Shown piece after piece: positions 2,957 to 53,266 of a stretch of 53,266 bases of DNA. This stretch comes from Bacillota bacterium (GTDB lineage Bacteria; Bacillota; Clostridia; Christensenellales; Pumilibacteraceae). Below the pieces are notes generated by a model, which was not told where the DNA came from, did no database searches, and was given only the letters and a program-made list of their open reading frames with translations. The stretch is taken from the NCBI GenBank assembly GCA_009787685.1, contig WQSV01000001.1, positions 1 to 53,266 of the forward strand, in the 5' to 3' direction. Each line of letters starts with the position of its first letter. Positions within the stretch are counted from its first letter, which is position 1. Position numbers and translations under genes: made by a program.

Positions 2957-3120
2957 ACTTTTTGCAAGCATTGCTTCATTATTTTCCACACTTTTAATCT
3001 GCATTATAAACTTATTTAGTATCAATTGCACTTGGTCGTGTGAATCTGAGTTCTTTATTGTTTTCTCTTTTGTTTACTTCTTTTAAATCGCTATTGAATT
3101 TTTTTTCTATCACACTATAT

Positions 3121-7429: not shown

Positions 7430-7504
7430 CTTTTCAGTGAATAAATAATAACAATTAGTGGCTAGTGTTTGTGAATTTTTTCGCAAACGATACATTATAG
7501 CATA

Positions 7505-7615
7505 ATTTATCGTGTCTTGTCAAGCATCTTGGATGCTTTTGTGAGAAATTTCTTTTATGAGAAATTCGTTAGCAAACAGGTCGAAGACCCTTTTCAAGCA
7601 TTTTAGATTCTTTTA
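7505..7615 (+). repeat. GTCGAAGAC-family repeat, 1-2 degenerate units
   Basis: ttgtcaagcatcttggatgcttttgtg ... aacaggtcgaagacccttttcaagcattttagattc. Confidence 0.7.
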
Positions 7616-7665
7616 TTAGGTTTTGCTATAAATGATTTTTTTGATAATGGCAAACTTTTCCTTAA

Positions 7666-8437: not shown

Positions 8438-8745
8438 GTGTTGTCAAGCATCTTCGATGCCTTTGTCGGAGAAGTCTAAGTAATAGCAATTTCCTTCAAA
8501 AGGGCTGAAAGTCCTTATCAACAGTCTTCGACTGCTTTGTTGGGTTCTGCTTGCATTCGCATTCAGCGTCAAGAGGGTCGAAGACCTTTGTCAAGCATCT
8601 TTGATGCTCTTGTCGGAGATTGCTATTATTAGAAACATCCTCACAAAGGGGTCGAAGACCCTTGTCAACAGTCTTCGACTGGTTTCTCGGATTCTGCGTG
8701 TATTTGCACTCTCCGTCAAAAAGGTCGAAAATTCTTGTCAATTTT
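8438..8745 (+). repeat. GTCGAAGAC-family repeat array (about 4 units) between adk and map
   Basis: Repeated gggtcgaagacc / agggctgaaagtcc first hairpins and cagtcttcgactg / agcatctttgatgct second hairpins. An approximately 80-bp block, about 8590-8670, is nearly identical to about 39490-39570. Confidence 0.9.
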
Positions 8746-39458: not shown

Positions 39459-39477
39459 AAAAACACTATATCCTTAC

Positions 39478-39592
39478 AAAGTTTTTTTGTCAAGCATCTT
39501 TGATGCTCTTGTCGGAGATTGCTATTATTTAGAAACATCCTCACAAAGGGCTCGAAGACCCTTGTCAAGCGTTTGCATATTGGGGTTTGAGC
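39478..39592 (+). repeat. GTCGAAGAC-family unit abutting the prophage end
   Basis: tgtcaagcatctttgatgctcttgtcggagattgctattatttagaaacatcctcacaaagggctcgaagacccttgtcaa, nearly identical to about 8590-8670. Confidence 0.85.
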
Positions 39593-39669
39593 GAATTTAA
39601 GAGCATTTTAGGGTGTTTCTGTGGGTATTTGGGGGTTGTTTTGGGGTTTTGTGTTTCTTTTTTTGAAAG

Positions 39670-39703
39670 TTTTTAGGTCATTTTTAGGTCTTTTTAAGGT
39701 CAT
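39670..39703 (+). repeat. three TTTTTAGGTC repeats at 10-11 bp spacing (candidate arm-type integrase sites)
   Basis: tttttaggtca tttttaggtct ttttaaggtca, about 60 bp beyond the integrase stop. Confidence 0.4.
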
Positions 39704-39757
39704 TTGTGTTTTGGTGTTTTTTTAGTCAAAAGCAATGTTCTTTGCTTTTGACTAAAG

Positions 39758-40984
39758 TTAGTTGCTGAAATCGGGATATAGGTTTCCGTAGATTTCCAGA
39801 ACTTCTTGTTTGGTTATGTTTGGGTCGTAGGTGGTGTAGCGGTCTGATGTCATTCTGCTGTCTTTGTGACCCATTGCGTGTTGACGGAATTTGTCGTTTG
39901 CTCCTAGATAGAATAGGTTTGAGCAGAAAGTATGGCGAAGGCTGTGGAGAGATGTGTCATCAAATTTTAAACCAATTTTGATTAGAAATTCTCTAAACCT
40001 TACCGCATAGTTTGTTCCCTTTCCGTTTTTAAACATCTTGTCCCATTTGGTGCGGAGTATGTCGCAGTAGGCTTGTGAGATTTTGACATAGCCACTTGTT
40101 CCATCGCTTTTTTGGCGATTGACCCATACTCTGTTGTTGTCGAAGTCTGGCTCGCAATTTGGGGCTTCGTTTGCTCGGCATCCAACCATTAAATAGAAAT
40201 CAATCTCGTCAGCGATTTTTGTCTCACCCTTTCTTGCGTGAATGATTTTCTGTTCTTCAATGTCAAACCATCTTCCTTTTACTTTTTCAAACGCTGGGCA
40301 TTTTAGGGTTGAGATTGGGTTTCTTTCGATTATTCCCTCCTCAACTGCATCAGCAAAAGTTAATTTCAAGATTTGTAAAACTTGGACTGGTTGGATTGGC
40401 AGATCTTTCAAGAAAGTTAGAATGTCCAATTTGGTGTATTCATCAATTGGCTTATCTAGTTTTGAAAGGTGCTTGTCTATCATTCCTCGCAATTTCTCAA
40501 AATCGTTTCGATTTGCTTTCGCACTTTTGACACATAGGTCGAACAATATCGGACATTCCCTTTTGAGCCTTGACACAAAACGAGTGTGTTTGAGAATGTT
40601 TTTCAACTCCCTCATTCGCTCCGCTATTTTCTTTTTCAACACTCGGTAGTCCTTATCAATCTCTCTGTGCCAGACCCCTGCTATCATTTTTTGCCATTCG
40701 AATCTTCCGTCTTTTCGCAGACGGACATTTTTTTGTGTTCGCATAAACTCTTGTTCCTCCTCGTTGAGTTGTTTTGAGTTCTCTGCGAATTGACCTTTTT
40801 TAGATGACCCTCCTTCATTTTGTGTAAGATTAGTATAGCATTTTTCGGAATTTTTGTCAACTGAAAAAGGGTTGTTTATCGGTCTATTTTCAATAGAAAA
40901 TGCCACAAATCGCCCAACTGTTTCTGTGAGCGTTGCAATCATTTTGCTCTGTTCAACTAGTTGTTGTTGCAATTCTGCACCCAT
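39758..40984 (-). CDS. int: tyrosine recombinase / phage integrase
   Basis: C-terminal LHSLRHTFCSNLF..AMGHKDSRMTSDRYTTY (R..HxxR..Y catalytic pattern); SD aaaggagc. Confidence 0.85.
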   Translation of the reverse strand: MGAELQQQLVEQSKMIATLTETVGRFVAFSIENRPINNPFSVDKNSEKCYTNLTQNEGGSSKKGQFAENSKQLNEEEQEFMRTQKNVRLRKDGRFEWQKMIAGVWHREIDKDYRVLKKKIAERMRELKNILKHTRFVSRLKRECPILFDLCVKSAKANRNDFEKLRGMIDKHLSKLDKPIDEYTKLDILTFLKDLPIQPVQVLQILKLTFADAVEEGIIERNPISTLKCPAFEKVKGRWFDIEEQKIIHARKGETKIADEIDFYLMVGCRANEAPNCEPDFDNNRVWVNRQKSDGTSGYVKISQAYCDILRTKWDKMFKNGKGTNYAVRFREFLIKIGLKFDDTSLHSLRHTFCSNLFYLGANDKFRQHAMGHKDSRMTSDRYTTYDPNITKQEVLEIYGNLYPDFSN

Positions 40985-41010
40985 TGTTTTTTGCTCCTTT
41001 CGTTTTCGTA

Positions 41011-42054
41011 TTAACTGAAAATATCTTCATCTTCATTGATTACACCGAACATCATTATTTGATCGGCAGTCATTGGTTGGTTTGGTTTTGGCATTGGGAT
41101 TGGGTTTTCTGTTTTTCCGAATTCCCATAGGAAGTGGATTCTGCGTTTGAACGCTTCAAAGGTTTCTGGTTCTTCTTGTTGTATTAAGGGGTATTGGGAA
41201 TTTAGCGGAATGTTGCTTGCTATGTAGACTGTGTCGTAGCAGGCGGTTTTGTTGTTGTAGCGAGCGGGTAAATCTAAGGGGTAGCCGTCGAGTTGCTTTA
41301 AGATGTCGGATATTTTTAGGTGGGAGCGGAACTCGTCGAATAGGACTATTTTTTGTCCTTTGTAGGTATCCCACATGGAGCGGTCATAGTTCGTCACGAC
41401 ATAGACATTTTCATAGCCATATTTTTCCATAACATGACGAGTTTTTCCAACTCCTGTTTTACTCCAGATGTAGGTTGTGGTTAATTGGCGAAAGGTTTTT
41501 CGGAAAATCTCTTGTCGTTGCTCGTCACGAGCAGAAACATAGGCTTTAATGCGGTTTGAATAGAGCAAGAATTGTGATGGATAGGCATTTTGAATTTCTG
41601 CCATGCTTGCACCTTCTTCTAGTAGCATGATGATGTTTCTTAGGTCGTTGCGTTTGCCTTGTTCTTCTTCAAGGTTGATTTCGCCATTGCCTATTGGCTC
41701 GCCGATACGCGTTTCAGTTTTTGTCACATAGTCATAGGCTTGCCTTCGTGTGCCTCGTCTTTCTTCAATGTGGGCGAATGGGATTTTTTTCTTCAAGGTT
41801 GAAAAGCGTATGGGCTCAATGTTTTCGATATATATTTGATAGTGTTCGTAATCAGACTTTTCGCCTTTTTCGAGTTGCCCTATCCAAGTGTAAGGAGAAA
41901 GTGCTTCTATTAAATCGGCTTGCGAAATCTTTTCTGCTGATTGAGTGACGAGCCATGAGCGTGAACGGGTGTCTCGCTTTTTGTTTTCTTTTGAGTTGTT
42001 TTCGCTTTCTTTTGTTTCAGTTTCATTGTTAATGGTTGTTTCAATTTGCTCCAT
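41011..42054 (-). CDS. rep: rolling-circle replication initiator: HUH endonuclease plus SF3 helicase (CRESS-like Rep architecture)
   Basis: Motif I SWLVTQS, motif II HYQIYI, motif III YDYVTK, Walker A SKTGVGKT, Walker B IVLFDEF, motif C IASN. Confidence 0.75.
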   Translation of the reverse strand: MEQIETTINNETETKESENNSKENKKRDTRSRSWLVTQSAEKISQADLIEALSPYTWIGQLEKGEKSDYEHYQIYIENIEPIRFSTLKKKIPFAHIEERRGTRRQAYDYVTKTETRIGEPIGNGEINLEEEQGKRNDLRNIIMLLEEGASMAEIQNAYPSQFLLYSNRIKAYVSARDEQRQEIFRKTFRQLTTTYIWSKTGVGKTRHVMEKYGYENVYVVTNYDRSMWDTYKGQKIVLFDEFRSHLKISDILKQLDGYPLDLPARYNNKTACYDTVYIASNIPLNSQYPLIQQEEPETFEAFKRRIHFLWEFGKTENPIPMPKPNQPMTADQIMMFGVINEDEDIFS

Positions 42055-42721
42055 AGTTGCCTCCTATATCAAAAAATGATTGTTGGTTTTTGTAGCGATT
42101 AAGCCTTGCAGTTGCTTTTTGAAAGTAGGTTTTGTCGATTTCAAAGCCTAGATATTGAAATCCTGCTTTGTGGCAAGCAATGAGAGATGAAGCACTTCCG
42201 ACATGAGTATCGAGAATTCTATCGCCTTTTTTTGCGAATAGGTTGAGTATCCATGAGTAGAGTTTGATTGGTTTTTGTGTTGGGTGGAGTCGTTCTTCGT
42301 TTGCAGTGCCTTGCGGAACACATTCAAAAATTTTTGCGTTAGCGTTAAAACTTGTCCAAGCGTATTCGCACATAGCCATTGTAAATTTTTCGCCGATTGT
42401 TAGTTTTCGCCAAACTGCAAAACAGCGAGTAGGTGGAAGGTCAAAGTAGTTCCCACCCCAAATAATCTGATTTTTGCTGACTCGAAAAAGTTCGTTGAAA
42501 TATTCTTTTTTGGGAGCGATATCCCAATCAATGATTTTCTTTTCAATTTTTTTCTTGTTGAGAGCGTTTCGCCCTCGCCCACCAATGAAAGGTTTTTCAC
42601 ATTCAAAGTTAGCGTTGCCATATGGTGGGTCAACGATAGCAAGTTCAAAAAAATTATCTGGAATGGTTTTCATAGCGGTTAGGCAATCCATATTGTAGAG
42701 TTTGTTTAATTCAAAATTCAT
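42041..42721 (-). CDS. beta-class DNA methyltransferase (N6-A or N4-C)
   Basis: LYNMDCLTAMK..AIVDPPYG (motif IV) lies before ..RILDTHVGSASSLIACHKAGFQYLGFEID (motif I). ATG 42721 was chosen; the ORF part 42722-42946 covers GC-rich hairpins. Confidence 0.8.
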   Translation of the reverse strand: MNFELNKLYNMDCLTAMKTIPDNFFELAIVDPPYGNANFECEKPFIGGRGRNALNKKKIEKKIIDWDIAPKKEYFNELFRVSKNQIIWGGNYFDLPPTRCFAVWRKLTIGEKFTMAMCEYAWTSFNANAKIFECVPQGTANEERLHPTQKPIKLYSWILNLFAKKGDRILDTHVGSASSLIACHKAGFQYLGFEIDKTYFQKATARLNRYKNQQSFFDIGGNYGAN

Positions 42722-42847
42722 TTTTGTTTTTGTCCTTTTTGAAGTCATTGATTTTAGTTTGAACACAGCCAGCACAAAAGGGTTGAAAACCCTGTCACAG
42801 TCACAGTAGTTATCTAAAAGGTAACAATAGGCTTTTAGAATGATTCC

Positions 42848-42954
42848 GCCCGCCGCAAGCGGCGGGCAAAGTGTCGCCACAGGCAAAACGGGGGGCAAGC
42901 CCTGTTCCGTTTTTTGCCTGTGCGTGCTTCTTGTTATGTCACGCATAGTGCGTG
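42848..42954. other. cluster of GC-rich hairpins (candidate replication origin or packaging signal)
   Basis: gcccgccgc-aa-gcggcgggc. cacaggcaaaacgg..(gggc-aa-gccc)..ccgttttttgcctgtg. cacgca-tag-tgcgtg. Local GC is far above the surroundings. Confidence 0.5.
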
Positions 42955-42975
42955 TTTAAAGCGTTGTTTTGCGGT

Positions 42976-43392
42976 TTAAGGCAAGTTCTCGCTTTGTTGA
43001 AGCAATTGTTGTTGTTCGTTGTTGCCTTGTTGCAATGCTTGTTGCGACTGCATTTTGAGAGCGTTTTCAAGGTCTTTCAATGCTTGTTCTGAAACCTTTT
43101 TTGCTTTTGTTTTTCTCTCAATTGTGTCGTTGGGTGAGAGAAATTTTGCTTCCTTTTTGATTGCTTTCCAGTCTTTTTTGAAAGCCCATAGGATTGTTTT
43201 GGCAAAGTATAAGACAACATTTTGCCCTAGAATTACCTTGTTGCTTTCTTCAGAGTTTGGAAAAACTGAATGAATATCTGGTGCAGTTTCCCCAATGCTC
43301 ATGAGATGCATATATGCTTTTTGGGCAGGGTCAGTTAGTAGGTCTAAATATGACAGTGCTTTTTTTCTTGTTTTCTTTTTGTTGAAAAACAT
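42976..43392 (-). CDS. hypothetical protein
   Basis: 138 aa; SD cggagaat. Confidence 0.5.
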   Translation of the reverse strand: MFFNKKKTRKKALSYLDLLTDPAQKAYMHLMSIGETAPDIHSVFPNSEESNKVILGQNVVLYFAKTILWAFKKDWKAIKKEAKFLSPNDTIERKTKAKKVSEQALKDLENALKMQSQQALQQGNNEQQQLLQQSENLP

Positions 43393-43437
43393 TTTGTTTT
43401 ATTCTCCGTTAAAAATTATTTTTTGTTCGTCAAATAA

Positions 43438-43466
43438 GTGACTTCTATGATAAAATATGGTATAAT
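43438..43466 (+). promoter_or_regulatory. promoter of the KilA-N gene (extended -10)
   Basis: gtgact .. tgGTATAAT; SD aaaaggag before the ATG at 43491. Confidence 0.5.
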
Positions 43467-43490
43467 GAAATCATAAAAAGGAGTTTAAGT

Positions 43491-44313
43491 ATGTCAAAAT
43501 CACTTGAAATTAAAGGGATTGATATTGGTTACAAGAAAATCAATAAGGAAGATTATATCTCTCTCACTGATATGGCAAAGTATAAAAACGCGGAAATTCC
43601 TGCTCATGTCATATCACATTGGCTAAGCACTAAATTCGCAGTTGAGTTTTTGGGCATATGGGAAAAAACAAACAAACCCCAATTTTAACCTCACGGAATT
43701 CCGTGACATTAGAAATGATAGTGGTGGCAGTTTCACTCTCTCCCCTAAGCAATGGATAGAAAAAACTAATGCAATCGGATTGGTTTCAAGTGCAGGAAGA
43801 TATGGCGGAACTTTTGCTCACAAAGACATTGCTTTTGAATTTGCTACTTGGTTGAGTGCTGAATTCAAGTTTTGGATTATTCAAGAATTCCAACGCTTAA
43901 AGTCTGATGAATAACAATTGATAGCGTGGAGTGCAAAAAGAGAGCTCGCAAAAATCAACTATCACATTCAAACGAGTGCAATTGCACAGAATTTAATAGT
44001 GCCAACATTGACTGCAAGTCAAAAAAGTTTTGTTTATGCTGATGAAGCAGATTTGTTAAATGTTTCACTTTTTGGAATTACTGCATCAGAATGGCGAAAA
44101 GCAAATAAGGATAAAGACGGAAATATTCGTGATTATGCATCAATTCATCAACTGTTGGTTTTGGCGAACATGGAAAGCTACAACGCAATCATGATTAAAG
44201 ACAAATTGAGCCAACCAGAAAGACTTGACAAATTAAACGAGATGGCTCGTCAACAATTGCAAGTTTTGTCACAGGTTGAAAATAGGCTATATCTTCCAAA
44301 AAAAGACGATTAA
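43491..44313 (+). pseudogene. KilA-N domain protein, disrupted by one frameshift (about 43672-43680) and one in-frame TAA (43915-43917)
   Basis: Three consecutive ORFs together read ..DYISLTDMAKYKN..FLGIWEKTN / NPNFNLTEF..GRYGGTFAHKDIAFEFATWLSAEFKFWIIQEFQRLKSDE* / QLIAWSAKRELAKINYHIQTSAI.. Confidence 0.75.
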
Positions 44314-44346
44314 TTCAAAGCAGTGTCCTTGTGGCACTGTTTTCTT

Positions 44347-45120
44347 TTACGCTCCTTTTCTAAAGGCTTTTGGCACTTCGATTTGGGGAAGTCCACCATG
44401 ACCGCCGCAGTGGAAGTCTTGGTTGTCTTTGCCTTCTAGGAAATATTTGTGGTAGCCGTAGGAGTTGTAGCAGCTGAAGATGTTGCCCCAGTATTCGTAA
44501 GAAGTTGGCATTCCTTCGTTGAAGTTTGACTTGGTGTCGGAAAAGCGTTCTGCACTTTCTGTTGATGGGAACTCTAGACATTGCCATTTTGTGTGGATAA
44601 TATTTCCGAATTTGTCCTTGCTATGTTTTAGGTCGAGAATGAAAATGAAGCGTTCACATAAACCACGAATTGCCTTGTCAATGCTAACTGGTCGTTGGCA
44701 AGTTAGGACAATGTCTAGGTGGTAGTGGCGGTGTTGGGCAAAATAGTTCACAACAAAAGGTGGAATATATTTTCGCCTGCTGTCGTAATACATTTGAGCC
44801 TCGTCAAGTCCAATGAACGCATAAGGTGGAAGATAGACCGTTTCATGATGGGGGTTTGAATACCCTATTTTCCAACCATCAACGAATCTGTTTTTGAGTG
44901 GTCGTTGGAACTCTTTTCGCAAATAGACATCATAGTCAGTATAGACTAGGTGGTTTTTGAGTTGTGATAGGTTATGCCCTACTCTGTTGAGTGAGCGGAC
45001 ATATTGGCGAAGTCTTGAAATGTCAATCAACGCGTTTTCCCCACTCATTTTCATCAGTGCGAACAATGTTGCGAGTGCTGTTTTGCCAGAACCTATATCG
45101 CCAGAGATTATTGATAACAT
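44347..45120 (-). CDS. Zot / pI-like P-loop morphogenesis ATPase
   Basis: MLSIISGDIGSGKTALA (Walker A) .. FIGLDEAQMYY (Walker B) .. HRHYHLDIVLTCQRP. No C-terminal TM segment is seen. Confidence 0.55.
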   Translation of the reverse strand: MLSIISGDIGSGKTALATLFALMKMSGENALIDISRLRQYVRSLNRVGHNLSQLKNHLVYTDYDVYLRKEFQRPLKNRFVDGWKIGYSNPHHETVYLPPYAFIGLDEAQMYYDSRRKYIPPFVVNYFAQHRHYHLDIVLTCQRPVSIDKAIRGLCERFIFILDLKHSKDKFGNIIHTKWQCLEFPSTESAERFSDTKSNFNEGMPTSYEYWGNIFSCYNSYGYHKYFLEGKDNQDFHCGGHGGLPQIEVPKAFRKGA

Positions 45121-45122
45121 TG

Positions 45123-45269
45123 TTAATCCCTCCTAAACAGTCTGAAAAACGCGATAATTAATTTTACAAGCAAGCGAAGTATCCACGCTAAAATCTTGAA
45201 TGGCAACATGATAATGAACTTCACGACAGAAAAAATCATTAATATCGCCTTGATTAGTAGATATATCAT
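45123..45269 (-). CDS. 48-aa hydrophobic protein with a basic C-terminus (coat-protein-like)
   Basis: MIYLLIKAILMIFSVVKFIIMLPFKILAWILRLLVKLIIAFFRLFRRD; ATGA overlap with the upstream gene. Confidence 0.5.
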   Translation of the reverse strand: MIYLLIKAILMIFSVVKFIIMLPFKILAWILRLLVKLIIAFFRLFRRD

Positions 45270-47272: not shown

Positions 47273-47864
47273 TTGTTGCCTCCTGTATCTGATTTTTGGT
47301 TTTCTCAATTTCTGCAACTAGAATTTCGCCCTCAATTTCCAGTGGCAATAGTTCAAACAGCAACTCGCTTCGCCTTGCACTCAAAAACATCATGCGTTGA
47401 AGTTGCGTGATATTGATTTTCTGATTGGCTAGAATTTCGGCATATTCAGAGTCAACTGCGTTTAGTTGAGATTGCAATATAGAAATCACATTAGTGACGA
47501 GCGTTAGTCTTTCGTTGAGTAGTTGCAGTCGTGCAGAGTAGTATTCAAGCCTTAGATTATGTTGTTCTTGTTCAAGTTCGACGAGTTCTCGTTCAAGTTC
47601 TTCTGTTTCGTCGCTGTTGACTTGTGGTGGGTTTTCAATCTCTCGCTCCAAATCGTTGATGATGTTTTGATAATTTTCTTTTGAAGAATTTCCTGCATTT
47701 TCGCCAGAGAGTAGTCCTTGCTCATACGCTAAATCCAAATATTCATATGGAAACCGCTCTTCCCCGCTAATTCGTGATTGAATGTTTTCCCAGTTTAGAT
47801 AGATGACGAAACCTCCGACAGCAAGAAGTACGACAACAACTAAAAATCCTAAAAACTTTTTCAT
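47256..47864 (-). CDS. membrane-anchored coiled-coil protein
   Basis: N-terminal TM followed by heptad-rich E/L/Q sequence; ATGA overlap with the upstream gene. Confidence 0.55.
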   Translation of the reverse strand: MKKFLGFLVVVVLLAVGGFVIYLNWENIQSRISGEERFPYEYLDLAYEQGLLSGENAGNSSKENYQNIINDLEREIENPPQVNSDETEELERELVELEQEQHNLRLEYYSARLQLLNERLTLVTNVISILQSQLNAVDSEYAEILANQKINITQLQRMMFLSARRSELLFELLPLEIEGEILVAEIEKTKNQIQEATNDKND

Positions 47865-48793
47865 GCCGTCACCCCCTTTCCTGCAATCCGCTCTCTTAAC
47901 GCACCAAGTCTTGTCGTGAACTCATTTTGACTTAAAATCAAGCCCTCTTTCATGTTTTCGGCGATTGCTTGTTGCATTATTTTTTGCTCGTGAATTTGAC
48001 TGAATTGTTGTAGCATTGCGTAATATCTGTTGACTCTTGATTGAGCCGACTGAGCCGACAAATCCGCTTGCCAACGACTGTAAGTGTAGCCACCCCATCT
48101 GTTAAACCAATACGCCCAAGGAATACTCCCATGAGCGAAACTGTTCATTTGAGTTTGAGCATGGGAAAGCCTGTTTTGATAATGCTCCGCGAGTCCACTA
48201 TATCTCGACAACTCTCTCAACCAAAAATTGTGCAAGTTGAAAACTTCGTCAAGAGTGTAGTCATATGGAAAGGCAAAAATTAAGGATAAAATATCGCTCA
48301 ACCACCAACTCAAATATTCAATGTCAGTTGCGATTCTTGATAAAATTGCGACATAAATTTGTTCAAGAGTTTGCAGAAATTCTAGTGAGTTTGAGTCGAT
48401 TAAATCGCCAAGTCCGTAGTCAATGAGTTGAATAATAAGGTTGTGAAGGGTGTTAATATGCGACATTTGGGATAGAATTTGTTCGCTCAAATTTGCAATG
48501 ACTGACTCTAAATATTCTCGCATTTCATGATACTTTTGAGTCCAATATTTGACCTCGTTTTCCAATTCTTCGATTTTAACACGCAATTCCTGCCTTTCTC
48601 GTGCATTCAGTGAGTAGCCACTAGCAAAACCATTGCGATATGCCTCTTCAATTTCTCGCCTAGTGACAGTTCGCTCTTCGTTGTTTGAGTAGTCAAAATT
48701 GTCGCAACCGACAACAAAAAACATAGTGCTTGTTAGAATTGTAATGAACACTGCAACTAAAAAATACTTGCTTAAAGACTTGAAAAATTTCAT
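47861..48793 (-). CDS. lipoprotein, unknown function
   Basis: MKFFKSLSKYFLVAVFITILTSTMFFVVGC lipobox; SD gaggggg. Confidence 0.6.
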   Translation of the reverse strand: MKFFKSLSKYFLVAVFITILTSTMFFVVGCDNFDYSNNEERTVTRREIEEAYRNGFASGYSLNARERQELRVKIEELENEVKYWTQKYHEMREYLESVIANLSEQILSQMSHINTLHNLIIQLIDYGLGDLIDSNSLEFLQTLEQIYVAILSRIATDIEYLSWWLSDILSLIFAFPYDYTLDEVFNLHNFWLRELSRYSGLAEHYQNRLSHAQTQMNSFAHGSIPWAYWFNRWGGYTYSRWQADLSAQSAQSRVNRYYAMLQQFSQIHEQKIMQQAIAENMKEGLILSQNEFTTRLGALRERIAGKGVTA

Positions 48794-48794
48794 G

Positions 48795-50621
48795 TTAGCC
48801 CCCTCTCTTCTTTTTTCTGATGACAACAAATGCAATGACTGCTCCAGTGAGAATAATTAATATTAGTCCTGCAATTATCCACACTAACCTGTTTTGCCAC
48901 CAAGCAATGTCGCTCTCTGACGGGAGTGGCTCAAACCTTGCGAATAGTTCAATATTTGTTGTTAGCCTATCAAGGTGTGACACTCTTTGCGTGAATGCTT
49001 CGTTGTGATACCATGCAACAAAAACATAGCCAAAATGTTCTGGAGTGAACAGATTGTTTAGTCTTTCGTTGTGTGGAATCCAATGAGTTGTTCTTTGCCC
49101 TCGAACATTGAAAGTTATTGAGTTCATTATGGCGAACTCGGAGTTTGCGAATAACTCAATGTCGCTAGTTATTGCGGTAGCAAGGCAGAATGCTTTTGAC
49201 TCAAAAGAATCAATGAACACTTCTGTCATTTGCCCTGTTTCAATGTTGAGTAGGGTCACTTGCTTTAGTGTTGTTCCATAATTCACAACAATTTCTTGCC
49301 ACACTTCTCCACCAACAATGAACGAGATAGTAAAACGCATGATTTCCCATCTTGCGAAGAACTGCTGATTTCCAAAAGTTCCAGTCTCAATTTGAGTCAC
49401 TGCTTGCCCAGAGAACGCAGAGTTCCGATACCACCCTCTAAAGTAATGCCCAGAGCGATTTGGGGTTGGGAGCGTTATATTTGGGCATTCGATTGTAAAA
49501 GTTGTGTTTGGTGTTGACTCAAAAAAACCTCCGTTTAGATTGAAAATGATGTCGTAAGTGACTACATTCCAAAGAGCAAAGAACGAGCGATTGTCGATTG
49601 AATTTGCAACAATTTCAGTTATTGGAGTTCCGACAAGAGCAATATTGTTAAACCAACCACCGAAATAATATCCGTCACGAGTTGGAACTGGGAGCGTGAT
49701 TGTCGGACTATTAACAGTGAATGTCGTTGGAGCATTTGACGGGAGAATTCCTCCGTTAAGGTTGTATGTAATAGTGTAGACAATGACTTCCCATCTAGCA
49801 TAAAACCGCTGATCACCAATCGTTCCAGTCACAATTTGAGTTGTTGGCGAGCCTGTGAAAGCGGAGTTGTTATACCAACCTTGAAAGGTGTAGCCCCGCC
49901 TCGTTGCAGTAGTAAGTGTTAAGTCTGGCGAAAGAACAGTGAATGTTGATGGAGCAATGCTGACAAAACTTCCCCCACCCAATGAGAAACTTATCGTGTA
50001 AGTAATAGGGACAAACTTTGCATGAAGTTCCATATCCCCAGTAACTGGTCTGCCGTCGAAAGGTTGAGTGAACTCTGAATCAAAAAACCAACCACAAAAT
50101 GTGAATCCATCTGGTGTAGGTGGTGTTGGTAAAACTATTGACATAAAATAAATTCGCCAACCTGCTGTCCCTATGTTAATTCCACCATAATTACGAACTG
50201 CACTTGTTATTAATAAAATTCCATTATTAAGTAATTGATTGCGATGATTATCTAATAAATTTTCTGCTGAAATAATAGCAGAAAACAATCTTAAACTACT
50301 ATCAAATTGAATTATTTTTAAATTCGTTGCTATCAAATCTCTGTTGCCAGTTCCAGAATTTCCCACAAAAAGCAAGAAATCTTCTTCTACAGCATCCAAA
50401 AAGTTTTCAAAATTAAAGTTAATTGGATTGTTTATTCTTATATTTACAGATATAAACTTTTGATCTAATGTCTGAGTTGAGAATAACTCCTCATGTGTTC
50501 TATCTACAGCATTAGATTGAATTTCATCACCCCCAAAAATCATTGCAACCGCAAATACAACTAAAAGCATTGCAACAATGAATACCATTTTTCCTTCTTT
50601 TCTTAGAATCATTTTTTTCAT
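48795..50621 (-). CDS. surface protein with at least 4 Listeria-Bacteroides (Flg_new-type) repeats and a C-terminal TM anchor
   Basis: Repeats of ..Y.I.F.LNGG....P..FT...P.I.LP.P.R.GY.F.GW..N.AF.G..; C-terminus IIAGLILIILTGAVIAFVVIRKKKRGG. Confidence 0.7.
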   Translation of the reverse strand: MKKMILRKEGKMVFIVAMLLVVFAVAMIFGGDEIQSNAVDRTHEELFSTQTLDQKFISVNIRINNPINFNFENFLDAVEEDFLLFVGNSGTGNRDLIATNLKIIQFDSSLRLFSAIISAENLLDNHRNQLLNNGILLITSAVRNYGGINIGTAGWRIYFMSIVLPTPPTPDGFTFCGWFFDSEFTQPFDGRPVTGDMELHAKFVPITYTISFSLGGGSFVSIAPSTFTVLSPDLTLTTATRRGYTFQGWYNNSAFTGSPTTQIVTGTIGDQRFYARWEVIVYTITYNLNGGILPSNAPTTFTVNSPTITLPVPTRDGYYFGGWFNNIALVGTPITEIVANSIDNRSFFALWNVVTYDIIFNLNGGFFESTPNTTFTIECPNITLPTPNRSGHYFRGWYRNSAFSGQAVTQIETGTFGNQQFFARWEIMRFTISFIVGGEVWQEIVVNYGTTLKQVTLLNIETGQMTEVFIDSFESKAFCLATAITSDIELFANSEFAIMNSITFNVRGQRTTHWIPHNERLNNLFTPEHFGYVFVAWYHNEAFTQRVSHLDRLTTNIELFARFEPLPSESDIAWWQNRLVWIIAGLILIILTGAVIAFVVIRKKKRGG

Positions 50622-50660
50622 TTATTAAATTTTTCTCCTTTGACATTTTTAATAAAATGT

Positions 50661-50900
50661 CTATTGCTTTCTCTCTGCAATCGAAACTTTGTGTCCCTTG
50701 CTTTTGAGTCTGTCAACATACTTTTCCAAAACATGATGTGGAATGCCGCACATATTTTCACGCTTGAAACCAACATCACGACTGGTTATAACAAGGTCTA
50801 GTTCTTTTGCGGCAACTTCAGCATCCTTTCCAAACAATTCAAAAAAATCGCCAACCTGATAGAACAACAATGACTCGTTATTCCTTTCTTTGAGCGACAT
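50661..50900 (-). CDS. stand-alone MutS domain I (mismatch-binding domain)-like protein, probably the -1 frame extension of the upstream gene
   Basis: SLLFYQVGDFFELFGKDAEVAAKELDLVITSR..MCGIPHHVLEKYVDRLKSKGHKVSIAE. The homology continues upstream of the ATG (TPLFREY). Confidence 0.6.
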   Translation of the reverse strand: MSLKERNNESLLFYQVGDFFELFGKDAEVAAKELDLVITSRDVGFKRENMCGIPHHVLEKYVDRLKSKGHKVSIAERKQ

Positions 50901-50971
50901 ATATTCCCTAAACAGCGGTGTCGCATTTTGTGGAATTGGCGATTTTTGAATTATTGGAACAGTGACAACCT

Positions 50972-51559
50972 CTAACTTGCCGTTTTTTTTTGAGAGTTTG
51001 GCAACTGTCCGCTGTTGGCTTTAAATTCGTCAATTTTTGCTTGTGACTTTGCTCCAGCAGTGACTAATGCGTTGCCAACACCCCTTAAATGCTCTCTGCG
51101 AACTTCTGTTGAACTATTATTGAATTTTCTTGCAGTGTAATTGTAGGCTTCGCCTGTTTTTCTGTCACGATTGAATAGTCCAAGCCTTATGCCTTTTTGA
51201 GTGTCGGTCAAGGTTTCCCCTGTCCTTGAATCAATTCCGCTTTCGAGCTCTTTCCAGTAGCGGTTTCGTTGCTGTTGCGGTGTTTCAAAAAAACTTTTGC
51301 TGATTTCCTCTTTCGCTGATTCTAACGACTTTCCTGCAACAACGGCTCTCACAATCTTTTCACGATACCCAAGTTGACCTATTCTCAACGGGGTGGTTTT
51401 TCCACCGAATTGGCTTGACCCAGTATTCAATTCGTTTTCATACCTCTCAACAATTTCTCTGTCCGAATTCGACAAATGCCCAAACAAATCTTCTTTGACT
51501 GGTGCTTCTTTTGTTTTCGTTGTTTTTGTTTTTTGTTTCTTTTCTTCTTTTTTTGACAT
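50972..51559 (-). CDS. hypothetical basic protein (0-frame product)
   Basis: 195 aa; SD cggaggat; ends 3 codons after an A9 tract. Confidence 0.55.
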   Translation of the reverse strand: MSKKEEKKQKTKTTKTKEAPVKEDLFGHLSNSDREIVERYENELNTGSSQFGGKTTPLRIGQLGYREKIVRAVVAGKSLESAKEEISKSFFETPQQQRNRYWKELESGIDSRTGETLTDTQKGIRLGLFNRDRKTGEAYNYTARKFNNSSTEVRREHLRGVGNALVTAGAKSQAKIDEFKANSGQLPNSQKKTAS

Positions 51560-51876
51560 TATTTTTTATCCTCCGATTGTCTAATTTTTGTGCCATTGGC
51601 ACTTTTGTCTTGACATGATTGAAATTACTATCATGATACCCGACTAGCCTGTGGTGGCACACCACTGTGCAGAGATTGAGCAGACCCTCCATCCCTTCTG
51701 CCCAATCACAGCACGACACTTTTGGCACTCCCCAGCCGCCCACGCGAAAATGCTTTATGCTCCATGCCTAAATCAAAAACTTCATGAATGTGTCAATATC
51801 TGACTTAAAAAAAATTTGATTTTTTGTTTAGACATGAGCAGAAAACAATTTTCGCCCCTGTGCCAAGTGCAGTTTT

Positions 51877-52395
51877 TTATTGTTTTTGAATCTGACTATT
51901 CCTCAAATCCCTAAACTCTTTTTGAGTCAAGACTTTGAGATTCTCCCTTCCGCACATCAGAAGCTCTGCTCTCTTTTCTTCGTTGCGAACATGAACAAAC
52001 TCAAGTGCATCCCCGAATGGACTATGTAAGTTCATGTCGAGATAAGTTAGCATTTTGCGACTTTTTTTGCTCATATATTCAGCAAGATAGATGTCACACT
52101 TAACAGGAATACTTCGCTCCTCACTGTCACGCAATCGTTCTTTCACGCGATAATTAAAGCGACCTCTTCTTGAATTTTCTCTGATAGATAGCGTTACCTC
52201 ATCTCCAAATTCGTCAAATGGGTGCTTGATTGTGATGATAACTTCTTCCGTTTCTTTTCTCGTTCTAAAATTTTCAACCCATTCAAGTTTGACACTTCCC
52301 TCAACGGAAATCATGTTTGCCAGTTGCTTTTGAGTTTTCGCTGAACTCTCTTTCTTCATTTTTTCTTCTGTTTTTTCGTTTTCAATGTTTGACAT
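51877..52395 (-). CDS. hypothetical protein
   Basis: 172 aa; SD aaaaggag. Confidence 0.5.
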   Translation of the reverse strand: MSNIENEKTEEKMKKESSAKTQKQLANMISVEGSVKLEWVENFRTRKETEEVIITIKHPFDEFGDEVTLSIRENSRRGRFNYRVKERLRDSEERSIPVKCDIYLAEYMSKKSRKMLTYLDMNLHSPFGDALEFVHVRNEEKRAELLMCGRENLKVLTQKEFRDLRNSQIQKQ

Positions 52396-52474
52396 TTTTC
52401 TGTCACTCCTTTTTTTTTGTTTTTAATTTTTGTCTGTTTTCTTGTTTTTTAGGGTCAGGGTCGCAGACCCACCC

Positions 52475-52705
52475 CTATTCCCTAACTGGCATTACGAATT
52501 TAATATTCACTTCAAATGCCATTTTCCGAGCCATGTTTATGCAGTCCAATAAGTCCGAATACAATCCGTTGCAACAATACATAAACTTTCCGTTCTGGTT
52601 ATATATAACAATCCGAAATGTCTTTTGCTCTTCGTTCTCTAAAACAGAAATGTAATAGTTCTTTTTCAGCCTCATAAACTTGCCTAAGTTTTTCATTCTG
52701 CTCAC
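52475..52705 (-). CDS. hypothetical small protein
   Basis: 76 aa; GTG start at 52705, 5 nt after aggagg. Confidence 0.45.
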   Translation of the reverse strand: MSRMKNLGKFMRLKKNYYISVLENEEQKTFRIVIYNQNGKFMYCCNGLYSDLLDCINMARKMAFEVNIKFVMPVRE

Positions 52706-52798
52706 TTCATCCTCCTTCGTGCTTATGGCACTTTTCCGTTTGGGAAATTATCCCCTACACTATATAGGAGATGAGAAAGCACTTTGTTGTGGTTGTTT

Positions 52799-53202
52799 TT
52801 AAAAATAATTTAAAATATTTCTAATTTTTTTATGTATGACTTCCAATTGCCTCTGCACATTACTAAAATCAATCTCTAATAATTTCCCAATCTCACGCAA
52901 AGTCATATTTTCAAGATAATACAACCGCAAAATTTTCGTTGCTTTTGATTGAGTTGAGAAATAGCATTTCTTAAATCCTTTCTTGTTGAAATTTTCTCAA
53001 CCTCACTTTCCACGCACGAGTCACCAGAAGGCTCAAACCCAATTTCCGCTTGCAACCTATCAAGCGAACTCTCGCCCCTCCAACGCATTTTGCGTTCCTC
53101 ATTCTCTTTTTCAAGTTCAAGCGTTTCAAGAAGTTTTGCAACCTCCTCACTCACTTCAATCTCAACGGCTTGTCCATTCCACAATGTGTAATTTGTTTTC
53201 AT
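52799..53202 (-). pseudogene. sigma-70 region-4-like HTH protein, frameshifted at an A4T4 run (52929-52936)
   Basis: The 0-frame ends ..QLNQKQRKFCGCIILKI*. The -1 frame continues QRKILRLYYLENMTLREIGKLLEIDFSNVQRQLEVIHKKIRNIL, a typical region 4 HTH. Confidence 0.65.
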
Positions 53203-53266
53203 TTTTAACTCCTTTTCCGATTTTTTATAAAATCAGAGCAGGGTTAAAAATTCGGACAAAAAAAAG

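What the first reader, a model, noticed from the sequence alone, without database searches (positions are those of the whole stretch)
39595..53266. Integrated element combining a CRESS-like HUH+SF3 Rep, a Zot/pI-like ATPase and a tyrosine integrase: an inovirus-like prophage of unusual composition
**Gene order on the - strand.** HTH (frameshifted), small proteins, the 195-aa/MutS-I pair, a 608-aa repeat surface protein, a lipoprotein, a coiled-coil membrane protein, a 669-aa anchored protein, a 48-aa hydrophobic basic-tailed protein, the Zot-like ATPase, (KilA-N on the + strand), a 138-aa protein, the MTase, Rep, and the integrase.

**Inovirus-like module.** A large adsorption-like protein, a tiny hydrophobic protein and a Zot/pI ATPase are the hallmark morphogenesis module of filamentous phages.

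**Rep type.** Rep is not the pII type. It has all motifs of eukaryotic CRESS-DNA virus and pCRESS plasmid Reps:
- motif I WLVTQS
- HUH-type HYQIY
- YDYVTK
- SF3 Walker A, Walker B and motif C

**Why it matters.** Gram-positive inoviruses are poorly characterised. A filamentous-phage chassis driven by a CRESS-type Rep and carrying a block of four large envelope proteins would be an uncommon hybrid.

**Limits.** The right end is outside the window, so the att sites cannot be defined.
Basis: partly seen in the sequence, partly recalled or inferred. Interest (0 to 1): 0.75.

Follow-up and report, generated by a model that had tools for sequence, protein, structure and literature searches.

The report
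Filamentous-phage-like prophage with circovirus-type Rep
This is a roughly 13.7-kb mobile element integrated in the chromosome of a termite-gut Clostridia-like bacterium; it pairs a circovirus-type replication protein and origin with a filamentous-phage assembly ATPase and an integrase, a combination that is real but was already catalogued in 2019 and is widespread, so it is a new example, not a new kind.

Summary
**Observation.**
- tyrosine integrase;
- HUH + SF3 Rep (best solved-structure match: porcine circovirus 2 Rep);
- Zot/pI-family ATPase;
- N6/N4 methyltransferase;
- KilA-N pseudogene;
- MutS-I fragment;
- Flg_new surface protein.

**New here.** The element has a CRESS-type replication origin at 42794-42867. 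It sits in what had been read as the start of the methyltransferase gene.

**Not unusual.** Roux et al. 2019 list an inovirus Rep family with the S3H helicase (iPF_00203). The window's Rep falls in the pCRESS2 group of Kazlauskas et al. 2019. GenBank holds circular Inoviridae records with Zot next to this Rep. In my own sample, 84 of 160 loci with this Rep family also encode Zot.

**Caveats.**
- No major coat protein was found.
- Zot has no membrane segment.
- Two regulator genes are broken.
- The origin nonamer is atypical.
- No circular form or empty site was found.

So membership of the filamentous phages is not proven, and this copy may be decaying.

**Verdict.** New member of a known kind; modest interest.

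The parts
39548..39569 (+). End of a host REP-like intergenic repeat (hairpin GGGCTCGAAGACCC followed by TTGTCAAG). The element abuts it.
   Evidence: Alignment A4: other copies of the repeat (window ~2780, 7480 and 8540; L015) end at ...GACCCTTGTCAA(G/C). Element-specific sequence follows only in the window, L001 and L009.
39570..39610 (.). Left terminal segment of the element. It varies between copies, and there is a sharp junction at 39610/39611.
   Evidence: L001 is 100% identical to the window from 52054 down to 39611, then drops to about 70%. Homology with L009 runs to about 39558-39562.
39673..39701 (+). Three direct repeats (TTAGGTC, TTAGGTC, TAAGGTC) spaced 11 nt apart. Candidate integrase arm sites or another protein-binding array.
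   Evidence: Sequence. Conserved with small changes in L009.
39720..39757 (.). Strong hairpin (15-bp stem, 6-nt loop) directly after the integrase stop codon. Not a canonical terminator on either strand. Function unknown (packaging signal, minus-strand origin or att-associated).
   Evidence: strand folding z = -6.8 on both strands, 0 of 200 shuffles as stable. Present in L009.
39758..40984 (-). Tyrosine integrase (408 aa).
   Evidence: PF00589 E 2.7e-11. phrog_1 integrase E 1.9e-28. 86% identical in L009.
41011..42054 (-). Rep: HUH (HUQ variant) endonuclease plus SF3 helicase, of the pCRESS2 type.
   Evidence: Pfam. PCV2 Rep 7LAR E 6.9e-10. Motifs in alignment A1. 42% identity, E 3e-67, to pCRESS2 WP_036328238.
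42041..42748 (-). N6/N4 DNA methyltransferase. The true start is probably Met67 (42748) or Met76 (42721), not 42946.
   Evidence: Pfam and PHROG matches begin at residue ~70. One gene caller gives 226 aa. Start analysis.
42794..42867 (-). CRESS-type replication origin. It consists of a GC hairpin (42848-42867), a stem-loop TCTAAAAG/CTTTTAGA whose loop carries the nonamer TATTGTTAC (42813-42839; nonamer 42821-42829), and the iterons CTGTGAC-TGTGAC (42794-42806).
   Evidence: Found. Homology to the TAGTATTAC origins of L178, L176, L180, L018 and L009 in alignment A2. Fold z = -4.6. Coordinates. Family statistics.
42976..43392 (-). 138-aa protein of unknown function, at the conserved position between Zot and the origin.
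   Evidence: No Pfam or PHROG match. 77.5% identical in L009. L178 and L076 have proteins of similar size (130 aa) at the same position with no detectable similarity.
43491..44313 (+). KilA-N-type regulator pseudogene (one frameshift and one in-frame stop).
   Evidence: Pfam KilA-N on two fragments. The fragments together cover phrog_2657. Frames shown.
44347..45120 (-). Zot/pI-family P-loop ATPase (257 aa). Walker A is at the N-terminus and there is no transmembrane segment.
   Evidence: PF05707 47.7 bits. phrog_197 E 1.5e-19. No TM segment. The family HMM also scores the pI of the secreted Enterocloster inovirus at 157 bits.
45123..45269 (-). 48-aa very hydrophobic, basic ORF with its own Shine-Dalgarno sequence, abutting Zot. 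It occupies the position of gene VI, or could be a membrane partner of the ATPase.
   Evidence: Sequence and RBS. 49% identical ORF in L009. 18 of 24 N-terminally short Zot genes have such an abutting hydrophobic ORF. No sequence homology was shown.
45266..47272 (-). 668-aa protein with an N-terminal signal/TM segment and a C-terminal membrane anchor. Candidate adsorption (pIII-like) protein.
   Evidence: Translation. No Pfam or PHROG match. The C-terminal 400 aa are 71% identical in L009. A homolog lies next to Rep in L020.
47256..47864 (-). 202-aa protein with an N-terminal TM segment followed by a coiled coil.
   Evidence: Translation. No family match.
47861..48793 (-). ~310-aa putative lipoprotein (lipobox VVGC).
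   Evidence: Translation. Gene calls of 287-310 aa. No significant family match.
48795..50621 (-). 608-aa surface protein with a signal peptide, five Flg_new (Listeria-Bacteroides) repeats and a C-terminal anchor. A conserved component of this lineage.
   Evidence: PF09479 E 6e-48. Homologous 481-482-aa Flg_new proteins occupy the same position in L178 and L180.
50661..50900 (-). 79-aa fragment of a MutS N-terminal (domain I) gene. Cargo or debris.
   Evidence: PF01624 E 9e-22. Matches only positions 14-90 of the 853-position phrog_8439. Absent from all fetched relatives.
50972..51559 (-). 195-aa protein of unknown function.
   Evidence: No family match. 59% identical in L009.
51674..51709 (-). 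Hairpin in the 318-nt non-coding gap, conserved with L009.
   Evidence: L009 4091-4128 has a 12-bp stem. Window sequence, coordinates.
51877..52395 (-). 172-aa beta-rich protein. It sits where L178 has an SSB gene, but its function is unresolved.
   Evidence: Only 11 homologs among 1.8 billion representatives. AlphaFold model pLDDT 86. No significant fold match: PDB best E 0.05, viral library best E 0.0096.
52475..52705 (-). 76-aa ORF. It is uncertain whether this is a gene.
   Evidence: ORF list. Not on record as a called gene product. No family match.
52799..53202 (-). Sigma-70 region-4 HTH regulator, frameshifted. It is uncertain whether this gene belongs to the element or to the flank.
   Evidence: Pfam on the C-terminal fragment. 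Frameshift relative to intact homologs in L015 and L009. L015 has this gene without the rest of the element.

Best explanation
**What it is.** The region from about 39570 to the window end is a temperate, integrated mobile element. It belongs to a lineage that joins two modules:
- a CRESS/pCRESS2-type rolling-circle replication module: the HUH+SF3 Rep and its stem-loop origin with iterons;
- a filamentous-phage-type export module: large membrane-anchored envelope/adsorption proteins, a small hydrophobic protein and a Zot/pI-family ATPase.

A tyrosine integrase provides chromosomal residence.

**Likely cycle (inferred, not shown).**
1. The integrase excises a circular double-stranded form.
2. 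Rep binds the iterons and nicks the loop of the origin hairpin (TATTGTT/AC) on the coding strand.
3. Rep's SF3 helicase drives rolling-circle synthesis of single-stranded circles.
4. The membrane-associated Zot ATPase and its partners export these circles, and the Flg_new and 668-aa proteins act as adhesins or receptor binders.

**State of this copy.** It shows signs of decay or regulatory loss: two broken regulator genes, an atypical origin nonamer and a captured MutS fragment. It may be cryptic or helper-dependent.

**Shown here.** Domain identities, origin homology, chromosomal integration, family-wide linkage of Rep and Zot, and two alternative left flanks.

**Inferred.** Excision, single-stranded DNA production and particle formation.
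For: - **Domain assignments:**
- **Rep motifs:**. **pCRESS2 affinity:**
- **Origin:** homologous to the TAGTATTAC origins of relatives. Across the family, 114 of 142 Rep loci have such a hairpin, against 8 of 311 control windows.
- **Rep-Zot linkage:** 84 of 160 loci, always on the same strand; in 45 of them Zot ends within 2 kb upstream of Rep.
- **Circular relatives:** about 5-7 kb, with Rep, Zot and a textbook 46-aa coat protein (L100, L112, L142).
- **Prophage relatives:** bounded by 20-45-nt direct repeats (L130, L133, L137, L159).
- **Closest relatives share the gene order:** SSB, Flg_new protein, ~300 aa, ~106 aa, Zot, ~130 aa, origin, Rep, Int.
- **Link to proven phages:** the pI of experimentally secreted Enterocloster inoviruses scores 157 bits on the family Zot HMM.
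- **GenBank:** a circular Inoviridae record with Zot followed by this Rep.
- **Integration:** next to Spo0A, the ribosomal operon, SecY and AsnS.
- **Mobility:** the identical element has a different left flank in L001. L009 carries a related copy in another left context.
- **Composition:** GC skew differs from the host region.
Against: - No small alpha-helical major coat protein was found on the coding strand. The only small hydrophobic ORF is the 48-aa one, which is atypical: it has no acidic N-terminus.
- The closest relative, L178, also lacks a coat-like protein.
- Zot has no transmembrane segment, which Roux et al. required for genuine pI.
- No circular junction, empty site or att direct repeats were found for this copy.
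- The HTH and KilA-N regulators are pseudogenes.
- The origin nonamer differs at 2 of 9 positions from a consensus that is exact in 92 of 114 relatives.
- L009 is a deletion derivative with a truncated Zot, so the lineage decays in place.
- No recognisable single-strand-binding protein was found.
Confidence: 0.6

Rival explanations
1. It is an integrated pCRESS2-type plasmid or integrative mobilisable element, not a virus. Rep acts as replication initiator and possibly as relaxase. The soluble Zot-family ATPase takes the role that FtsK-like translocases have in other pCRESS elements. The large Flg_new and anchored proteins mediate cell-cell contact or surface exclusion. DNA would leave the cell without a protein coat.
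For: - Kazlauskas et al. describe pCRESS1-3, -5 and -8 elements as integrated plasmids with an FtsK-like ATPase, SSB and sometimes surface-exclusion proteins, and with no viral structural genes.
- The window's Rep is of the pCRESS2 type.
- No coat protein was found here or in L178.
- Zot lacks the membrane segment expected of pI.
- L178 carries a cellular-type SSB (PF00436) and a surface adhesin.
Against: - The same Rep and Zot families occur in about 5-kb circular genomes with a textbook coat protein and a TM-bearing pI.
- The Zot family includes the pI of experimentally secreted inoviruses.
- The gene order (large anchored protein, small hydrophobic ORF, Zot) matches gIII-gVI-gI.
- No relaxase accessory genes, coupling protein or type IV secretion genes are present.
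Confidence: 0.2
2. It is an immobile relic: a formerly active element now fixed in the chromosome. Its surface-protein genes are retained because they serve the host, and its replication and export genes are decaying.
For: - Two regulator genes are pseudogenes.
- The origin nonamer is atypical.
- It contains a MutS fragment.
- Its relative L009 has a 3.8-kb internal deletion and a truncated Zot.
- Every host contig that reaches the site reads into the element.
- No circular form was found.
- The neighbouring host genes are also large, variable surface proteins.
Against: - Int, Rep, Zot, the methyltransferase and all four large envelope genes are intact ORFs.
- Rep keeps all catalytic motifs.
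- The 13.6-kb element is 100% identical across assemblies yet has two different left flanks within one sample set, which suggests recent movement or recombination.
- The origin stem and iterons are intact.
Confidence: 0.15

Closest known systems
Putative inoviruses carrying Rep family iPF_00203 ('RCR + helicase', Viral_Rep) of Roux et al. 2019 (PMC6813254), and the IMG/VR contigs derived from that kind of survey
   Same: - A Zot/pI-family ATPase is linked to an HUH+S3H Rep on one strand.
- Hosts are single-membrane Firmicutes.
- Tyrosine integrases are often present.
- Both prophage and circular forms occur.
   Different: - This element is larger (about 13.7 kb against mostly 4.5-10 kb).
- It carries four large envelope proteins, a methyltransferase, a KilA-N pseudogene and a MutS fragment.
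- Its Zot has no TM segment, which Roux et al. required for genuine pI.
- No coat protein was found.
- I could not check whether this exact lineage is in their data set.
pCRESS2 integrated elements of Kazlauskas et al. 2019 (PMC6668415), e.g. the Hungatella hathewayi CZAZ01000001 element
   Same: - Rep is closest to pCRESS2 (42% identity, E 3e-67).
- It is integrated with a tyrosine recombinase in Clostridia.
- The Hungatella element also encodes Zot (PHA00012 'I assembly protein').
   Different: - The paper interprets these elements as plasmids without viral structural genes.
- Most pCRESS1-3 members have an FtsK-like ATPase, not Zot.
- The paper's main text does not describe origin stem-loops.
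Bajarodino virus 13 (GenBank PQ006184.1; Inoviridae, circular, 9,273 bp)
   Same: - Zot starts at the Walker A motif.
- Zot is followed by a homologous Rep (42% identity).
- An abutting hydrophobic ORF lies upstream of Zot.
- A recombinase-like gene follows Rep.
   Different: - It is a free circular genome from a faecal virome.
- It is smaller.
- It has no Flg_new protein, methyltransferase or KilA-N gene.
- Its proteins are only distantly related to those here.
Enterocloster inoviruses (Burckhardt et al. 2023, PMC10061712)
   Same: - They are Clostridia prophages flanked by direct repeats.
- They share the pI/Zot family (157 bits on my family HMM).
- They have large signal-plus-anchor proteins upstream of pI.
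- One predicted member is 16 kb.
   Different: - They were shown to be secreted.
- Their Rep is a different rolling-circle type without SF3.
- Their pI has an N-terminal TM segment.
- They have a clear G8P-like coat protein and an RstB-like DNA-binding protein, none of which was found here.
Eukaryotic CRESS-DNA viruses (circoviruses, nanoviruses)
   Same: - Rep domain architecture and motifs, including the HUQ variant.
- An origin made of a stem-loop with a TAGTATTAC-type nonamer plus adjacent iterons.
   Different: - The host here is bacterial and the element is integrated.
- There is no jelly-roll capsid gene.
- The nonamer here is TATTGTTAC.
- The genome is 13.7 kb, not 2-6 kb.

Membership tests
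CRESS/pCRESS-type Rep (HUH endonuclease + SF3 helicase) | Endonuclease motifs I, II (HUH or HUQ) and III (YxxK) | tested here: met
   SRSWLVTQS, HYQIY and YDYVTK are present and conserved in alignment A1. Viral_Rep E 3.7e-5, but 24.3 bits is below the 26-bit cutoff. Nuclease-domain structures 6H8O and 2HWT match at E ~1e-7.
CRESS/pCRESS-type Rep (HUH endonuclease + SF3 helicase) | C-terminal SF3 helicase with Walker A, Walker B, motif C and an arginine finger | tested here: met
   PF00910 28.6 bits, above the 21.5 cutoff. GVGKT, VLFDEF, ASN and invariant R265/R305 in A1. PCV2 Rep 7LAR aligns over residues 47-282.
CRESS/pCRESS-type Rep (HUH endonuclease + SF3 helicase) | Cognate origin: a stem-loop with a NANTATTAC-type nonamer and nearby iterons | tested here: met
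   A homologous stem-loop lies at 42813-42839 with iterons at 42794-42806. The nonamer TATTGTTAC deviates at 2 positions from the family consensus TAGTATTAC. Whether it is active was not tested.
pCRESS2 group (Kazlauskas et al. 2019) | Rep clusters with pCRESS2 sequences rather than with other pCRESS groups | tested here: met
   BLASTP against sequences copied from the paper's trimmed alignment gives pCRESS2 E 3e-67 to 2e-45 and pCRESS1 E 2e-28 to 2e-14. Groups 3-9 were not compared and no phylogeny was made.
Filamentous phages (Tubulavirales / realm Efunaviria) | Morphogenesis ATPase of the pI/Zot family | tested here: met
   PF05707 47.7 bits. phrog_197. Same family as the pI of secreted Enterocloster inoviruses.
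Filamentous phages (Tubulavirales / realm Efunaviria) | pI carries one or two transmembrane segments (criterion of Roux et al. 2019) | tested here: not met
   No hydrophobic segment in the 257-aa protein; Walker A starts at residue 6. A separate 48-aa hydrophobic ORF abuts it, but homology to pI N-termini is weak: 5.2 bits, with 2 of 200 shuffles scoring higher.
Filamentous phages (Tubulavirales / realm Efunaviria) | Small, highly hydrophobic alpha-helical major coat protein (named as a hallmark in PMC13595969) | tested here: not met
   A hydropathy scan of all ORFs of 25-110 aa found only the 48-aa ORF on the coding strand. That ORF is basic throughout and lacks an acidic N-terminus. The scan is simple and could miss an atypical coat protein. 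Relatives such as L100 have a clear one.
Filamentous phages (Tubulavirales / realm Efunaviria) | Circular single-stranded DNA packaged in extruded filaments | not testable with these tools
   Needs read-level, virome or wet-lab data. No circular contig of this element was found.
Integrated temperate element | Site-specific recombinase with attachment-site direct repeats at both ends, or an empty site in relatives | tested here: inconclusive
   The integrase is present. The left end is defined to 39562-39611 by three comparisons. No direct repeat of 11 nt or more links the two ends. L015 is not a clean empty site.

The most novel reading that the evidence does not exclude
The sub-lineage to which this element belongs has three shared traits: a Zot that starts at its Walker A motif with no membrane segment, no recognisable coat protein, and one or more large surface-anchored adhesins (Flg_new type) just upstream. 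It includes the window, L009 and L178/L179, and probably L076, L132 and L133.

This sub-lineage may not make filaments at all. It could be a coat-less, adhesin-assisted system for exporting or transferring single-stranded DNA. That would make it a functional intermediate between pCRESS plasmids and true inoviruses, replicated by the same Rep-origin module as eukaryotic CRESS-DNA viruses.
Probability: 0.15. Interest if true: 0.7.

Novelty: new member of a known kind. Interest (0 to 1): 0.3.

Why it matters
**The element itself.** It adds one more, somewhat larger and partly decayed, example to a class already listed in the 2019 inovirus survey, in IMG/VR and in GenBank.

**The family-level picture is more useful.**
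- These bacterial, Zot-linked elements share the Rep of eukaryotic CRESS-DNA viruses.
- They also share the canonical TAGTATTAC stem-loop origin with adjacent iterons (114 of 142 loci).
- More than half of the sampled pCRESS2-like Rep loci sit beside a filamentous-phage ATPase.

**Relevance.** This bears on whether the 'integrated plasmids' proposed as ancestors of CRESS-DNA virus replication modules are in fact phage-like. It also offers bacterial systems in which CRESS-type Rep-origin biochemistry could be studied.

**Ecology.** Such elements carry large adhesin-like proteins in termite-gut Clostridia, which may affect the cell surface.

Tried and rejected
1. **The 13,656-bp contigs as circular or excised forms: rejected.** They have no terminal overlap. 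They equal window 39611-53266 exactly, and their ends are assembly-graph forks.
2. **The Logan contig of equal length as a rotation of a circle: rejected.** Its 71-nt tail is a different left flank, not the right end.
3. **att direct repeats between the two ends: none found** of 11 nt or more.
4. **L015 as an empty site: rejected as a clean case.** Its left flank is unrelated to the window's, and it keeps the ribosome-binding site of the 172-aa gene.
5. **The window's right end as an att site: rejected.** The break comes from strain variation in the neighbouring surface-protein gene and from an alternative haplotype, L015.
6. **The 48-aa ORF as major coat protein: unsupported.**
   - As a split pI N-terminus: weak (5.2 bits; 2 of 200 shuffles score higher).
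   - As a member of the gene-VI-like family upstream of other Zot genes: no similarity (-2 bits).
7. **The 172-aa protein as an OB-fold SSB: not supported.** SSBs recur in the hit lists, but nothing is significant even with a confident model. The profile finds nothing in PDB or Pfam.
8. **A canonical AGTATTAC origin in the element: absent**. Only the degenerate homolog was found.
9. **A family-wide count of small TM ORFs to separate lineages with and without TM-bearing Zot: too noisy to use**.
10. **A close Zot relative in IMG/VR from a single-sequence search: none**.
11. **Enterocloster inoviruses as carriers of this Rep: no.** Their Rep is a different type.

Full report

Yes.

Pfam gives:
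- Phage_integrase for 39758-40984;
- RNA_helicase (SF3; 28.6 bits, cutoff 21.5) and Viral_Rep (24.3 bits, just under the 26-bit cutoff) for 41011-42054;
- N6_N4_Mtase for 42041-42946;
- Zot for 44347-45120 (47.7 bits, cutoff 20.3);
- five Flg_new repeats in the 608-aa protein;
- MutS_I in the 79-aa ORF;
- KilA-N in two fragments;
- Sigma70_r4 in the small C-terminal HTH fragment.

PHROGs agrees: integrase, Zot-like toxin, DNA methyltransferase. The best solved-structure relative of Rep is full-length porcine circovirus 2 Rep (7LAR, E 6.9e-10, residues 47-282), followed by CRESS-virus nuclease domains. An alignment of 26 homologs keeps motifs I-III, Walker A and B, motif C and the arginine finger.

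The HTH gene has one frameshift relative to intact homologs. KilA-N has one frameshift and one in-frame stop. Its pieces together cover one PHROG regulator family. Independent assemblies give the same gene calls.

**2. Setting and boundaries**

The rest of the window is core chromosome of a spore-forming Bacillota bacterium: Spo0A, RpoA, SecY, the ribosomal protein operon, the hut genes and AsnS. Related contigs come from MAGs labelled Bacillota bacterium. Their isolate names (Co191P1, Lab288P1, Emb289P3) I recognise, from my own knowledge, as termite-gut MAGs.

*Other copies of the element.*
- The same 13.66-kb sequence is also assembled as separate contigs in several data sets.
- These contigs are not circles. 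They equal window 39611-53266 exactly and have no terminal overlap.

*Left end.* Three comparisons define it:
- One contig (L001) is 100% identical to the window for 12,444 bases and then diverges sharply at 39610/39611 into a flank that is similar but different.
- Homology with a related element (L009, Rep 91% identical) ends at about 39558-39562.
- A multi-copy host intergenic repeat ends in ...GGGTCGAAGACCCTTGTCAAG, and element-specific sequence follows it only in element-bearing loci.
- Taken together, the left end lies at about 39570, with a variable terminal 40 nt.

*Right end.* I recovered the flank beyond the window:
- It holds a terminator and then large, strain-variable surface-protein genes.
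- The contig break is caused by that variation and by an alternative haplotype, L015, not by an att site.
- L015 has the surface gene, the terminator, an intact HTH gene, a 62-aa gene and even the ribosome-binding site of the 172-aa gene. It then continues into housekeeping genes.
- The right boundary therefore lies either at about 52396 or at about 53270-53330, and I cannot decide which.

*What I did not find.* There are no att direct repeats of 11 nt or more, no empty site and no circular junction.

**3.

*In relatives.* A stem-loop whose loop carries the canonical CRESS nonamer lies just upstream of Rep and is followed by short iterons.
- Of 142 Rep loci with upstream sequence, 114 have such a hairpin.
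- In 92 of those the nonamer is exactly TAGTATTAC.
- Only 8 of 311 control windows have one.

*In the window.* The exact nonamer is absent, but a homologous module is present on the coding strand:

| Feature | Coordinates |
|---|---|
| GC hairpin | 42848-42867 |
| Stem-loop TCTAAAAG-CCTATTGTTAC-CTTTTAGA | 42813-42839 |
| Iterons CTGTGAC-TGTGAC | 42794-42806 |

- The module aligns with the origins of L178, L176, L180, L018 and L009.
- It lies in the first 66-75 codons of the 301-aa methyltransferase ORF. Those codons have no family match, and one gene caller omits them.
- The methyltransferase therefore most likely starts at 42748 or 42721.
- The nonamer TATTGTTAC differs from the consensus at two positions but keeps the TT/AC nick context.

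*A second structure.* A strong hairpin (39720-39757, z = -6.8) and three 11-nt-spaced TTAGGTC repeats (39673-39701) sit after the integrase gene. Their role is unknown.

**4. How common is the combination?**

It is common.
- The Rep family has hundreds of members.
- Using the Rep alignment I fetched 80 loci from reference genomes and 80 from IMG/VR.
- An iterated HMM finds a Zot-family ATPase in 84 of these 160 loci: 30 genomic and 54 viral. It is always on the same strand as Rep. In 45 loci Zot ends within 2 kb upstream of Rep.
- Some relatives are circular genomes of about 5-7 kb. They have a textbook 46-aa coat protein, small multi-TM proteins, a Zot with an N-terminal membrane segment, the origin and Rep (L100, L112, L142).
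- Others are prophages with an integrase and 20-45-nt terminal direct repeats (L130, L133, L137, L159).

The closest Rep subclade (L178/L179, seen on 21 contigs, and L180/L181) has this order: regulators, SSB, a ~480-aa Flg_new protein, ~300-aa and ~106-aa proteins, Zot, a ~130-aa protein, the origin, Rep and Int. The Flg_new envelope protein is therefore a lineage feature and not odd cargo.

L009 is a deletion derivative. Window 50272 is joined to 46487, and its Zot is truncated. The four-protein block is therefore ancestral to both copies.

**5. What is already known?**

- **Roux et al. [quoted passage not shown]
- **Kazlauskas et al. 2019** (PMC6668415) define the pCRESS groups. The window's Rep is closest to pCRESS2 (42% identity, E 3e-67). 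Their table lists a Hungatella pCRESS2 element with Zot, although the text says none of the elements encode known viral structural proteins.
- **GenBank PQ006184.1** (Bajarodino virus 13) is a circular 9,273-bp Inoviridae record with Zot, then this Rep (42% identity), then a recombinase-like gene.
- **Burckhardt et al. 2023** (PMC10061712) showed secretion of Clostridia inoviruses. Their pI belongs to the same Zot family (157 bits on my HMM), but their Rep is of another type.
- I found no open-access paper that links the TAGTATTAC origin to inoviruses or prophages. That search is limited.

**6. What does not fit a textbook filamentous phage?**

- **No membrane segment in Zot.** Walker A starts at residue 6. 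Roux et al. required one or two TM segments for genuine pI.
- **No major coat protein found.** The only small hydrophobic ORF on the coding strand is the 48-aa one abutting Zot, which has its own strong ribosome-binding site.
- **The 48-aa ORF has positional support only.**
  - Among 24 Zot genes that start at Walker A, 18 have such an abutting hydrophobic ORF. This is the gene VI position of the Ff order gIII-gVI-gI.
  - The 48-aa ORF has no sequence similarity to that family.
  - It has only weak similarity to pI N-termini.
- **The closest intact relative, L178, also shows no coat-like protein** and a TM-less Zot.
- **No single-strand-binding protein identified.**
  - The 172-aa protein sits where L178 has its SSB.
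  - It gives a confident model (pLDDT 86).
  - It has no significant structural match.

**7. Conclusion**

The element is best explained as an integrated, probably cryptic member of a known and widespread class of Firmicutes elements. These combine a pCRESS2/CRESS-type Rep-origin module with a filamentous-phage-type export module and a tyrosine integrase.

Two defining features of filamentous phages were tested and not met: a coat protein, and a membrane segment in pI. I therefore say it works like an inovirus prophage, but I do not file it as a proven member.

Rival readings remain open: a non-viral integrative plasmid, or an immobile relic. The most novel reading not excluded is that this TM-less-Zot, adhesin-rich sub-lineage exports or transfers single-stranded DNA without a coat.

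**Verdict.** Novelty: new member of a known kind. Interest: 0.3.

Noticed in passing
window 2780-2990, 7480-7660, 8540-8720 and 39470-39569; L015 11700-11900: A multi-copy host intergenic repeat of about 100 nt. It contains a palindrome (GCATCTTTGATGC) and the hairpin GGGTCGAAGACCC, and ends in TTGTCAAG (a -35-like CTTGACA on the other strand). The element's left end abuts one copy, so this repeat may be the integration target.
   Followed up: partly
L012 184-5744 and L014 145-4670 (sequence just right of the window end): The right-hand neighbours are very large surface proteins (942-1030 aa and 551-814 aa). They differ strongly between strains while sharing the downstream terminator. This variation explains why several assemblies break at the window's right end.
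   Followed up: partly
L015 12069-12899 and L013 1443-2247: An alternative haplotype keeps the surface gene, the terminator, an intact sigma-r4 HTH gene, a 62-aa gene and the ribosome-binding site of the 172-aa gene. It lacks everything from the 172-aa gene to the integrase, and housekeeping genes follow. This could be a remnant, a deletion or the ancestral state; I could not resolve which.
   Followed up: partly
window 50661-50900: A 79-aa ORF equals only the N-terminal mismatch-binding domain of MutS. It is absent from all fetched relatives. It is either captured debris or a possible decoy for mismatch repair.
   Followed up: partly
L016-L175 (Rep-family loci): 114 of 142 loci have a hairpin with a NANTNNTAC nonamer upstream of Rep, and 92 of these are exactly TAGTATTAC, the circovirus/nanovirus origin sequence. 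L009 has the geminivirus-type TAATATTAC in an enlarged loop.
   Followed up: yes
L102, L119, L120, L158, L160, L163, L167, L168, L172-L175: Circular IMG/VR contigs of 2-3 kb carry the same Rep family but no Zot. These Reps therefore also occur on CRESS-virus-sized or small-plasmid-sized replicons.
   Followed up: no
L099, L101, L105, L109, L083, L137, L068, L128, L133, L182 (just upstream of Zot): A family of small hydrophobic proteins with the motif ...NWFIP...AW... abuts Zot genes that start at the Walker A motif. This is the position of gene VI in Ff phages.
   Followed up: partly
window 51877-52395: The 172-aa protein has only 11 detectable homologs among 1.8 billion representative proteins. 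It still gives a confident AlphaFold model (pLDDT 86) with no significant match in the PDB or the viral structure library, so it may be a new fold or a very divergent one.
   Followed up: partly
window 27022-30870: A 1,282-aa protein combines DUF4011, AAA_11/AAA_12 helicase domains and an MTES_1575 nuclease-like domain, on the opposite strand to its neighbours. It may be a defence-type gene.
   Followed up: no
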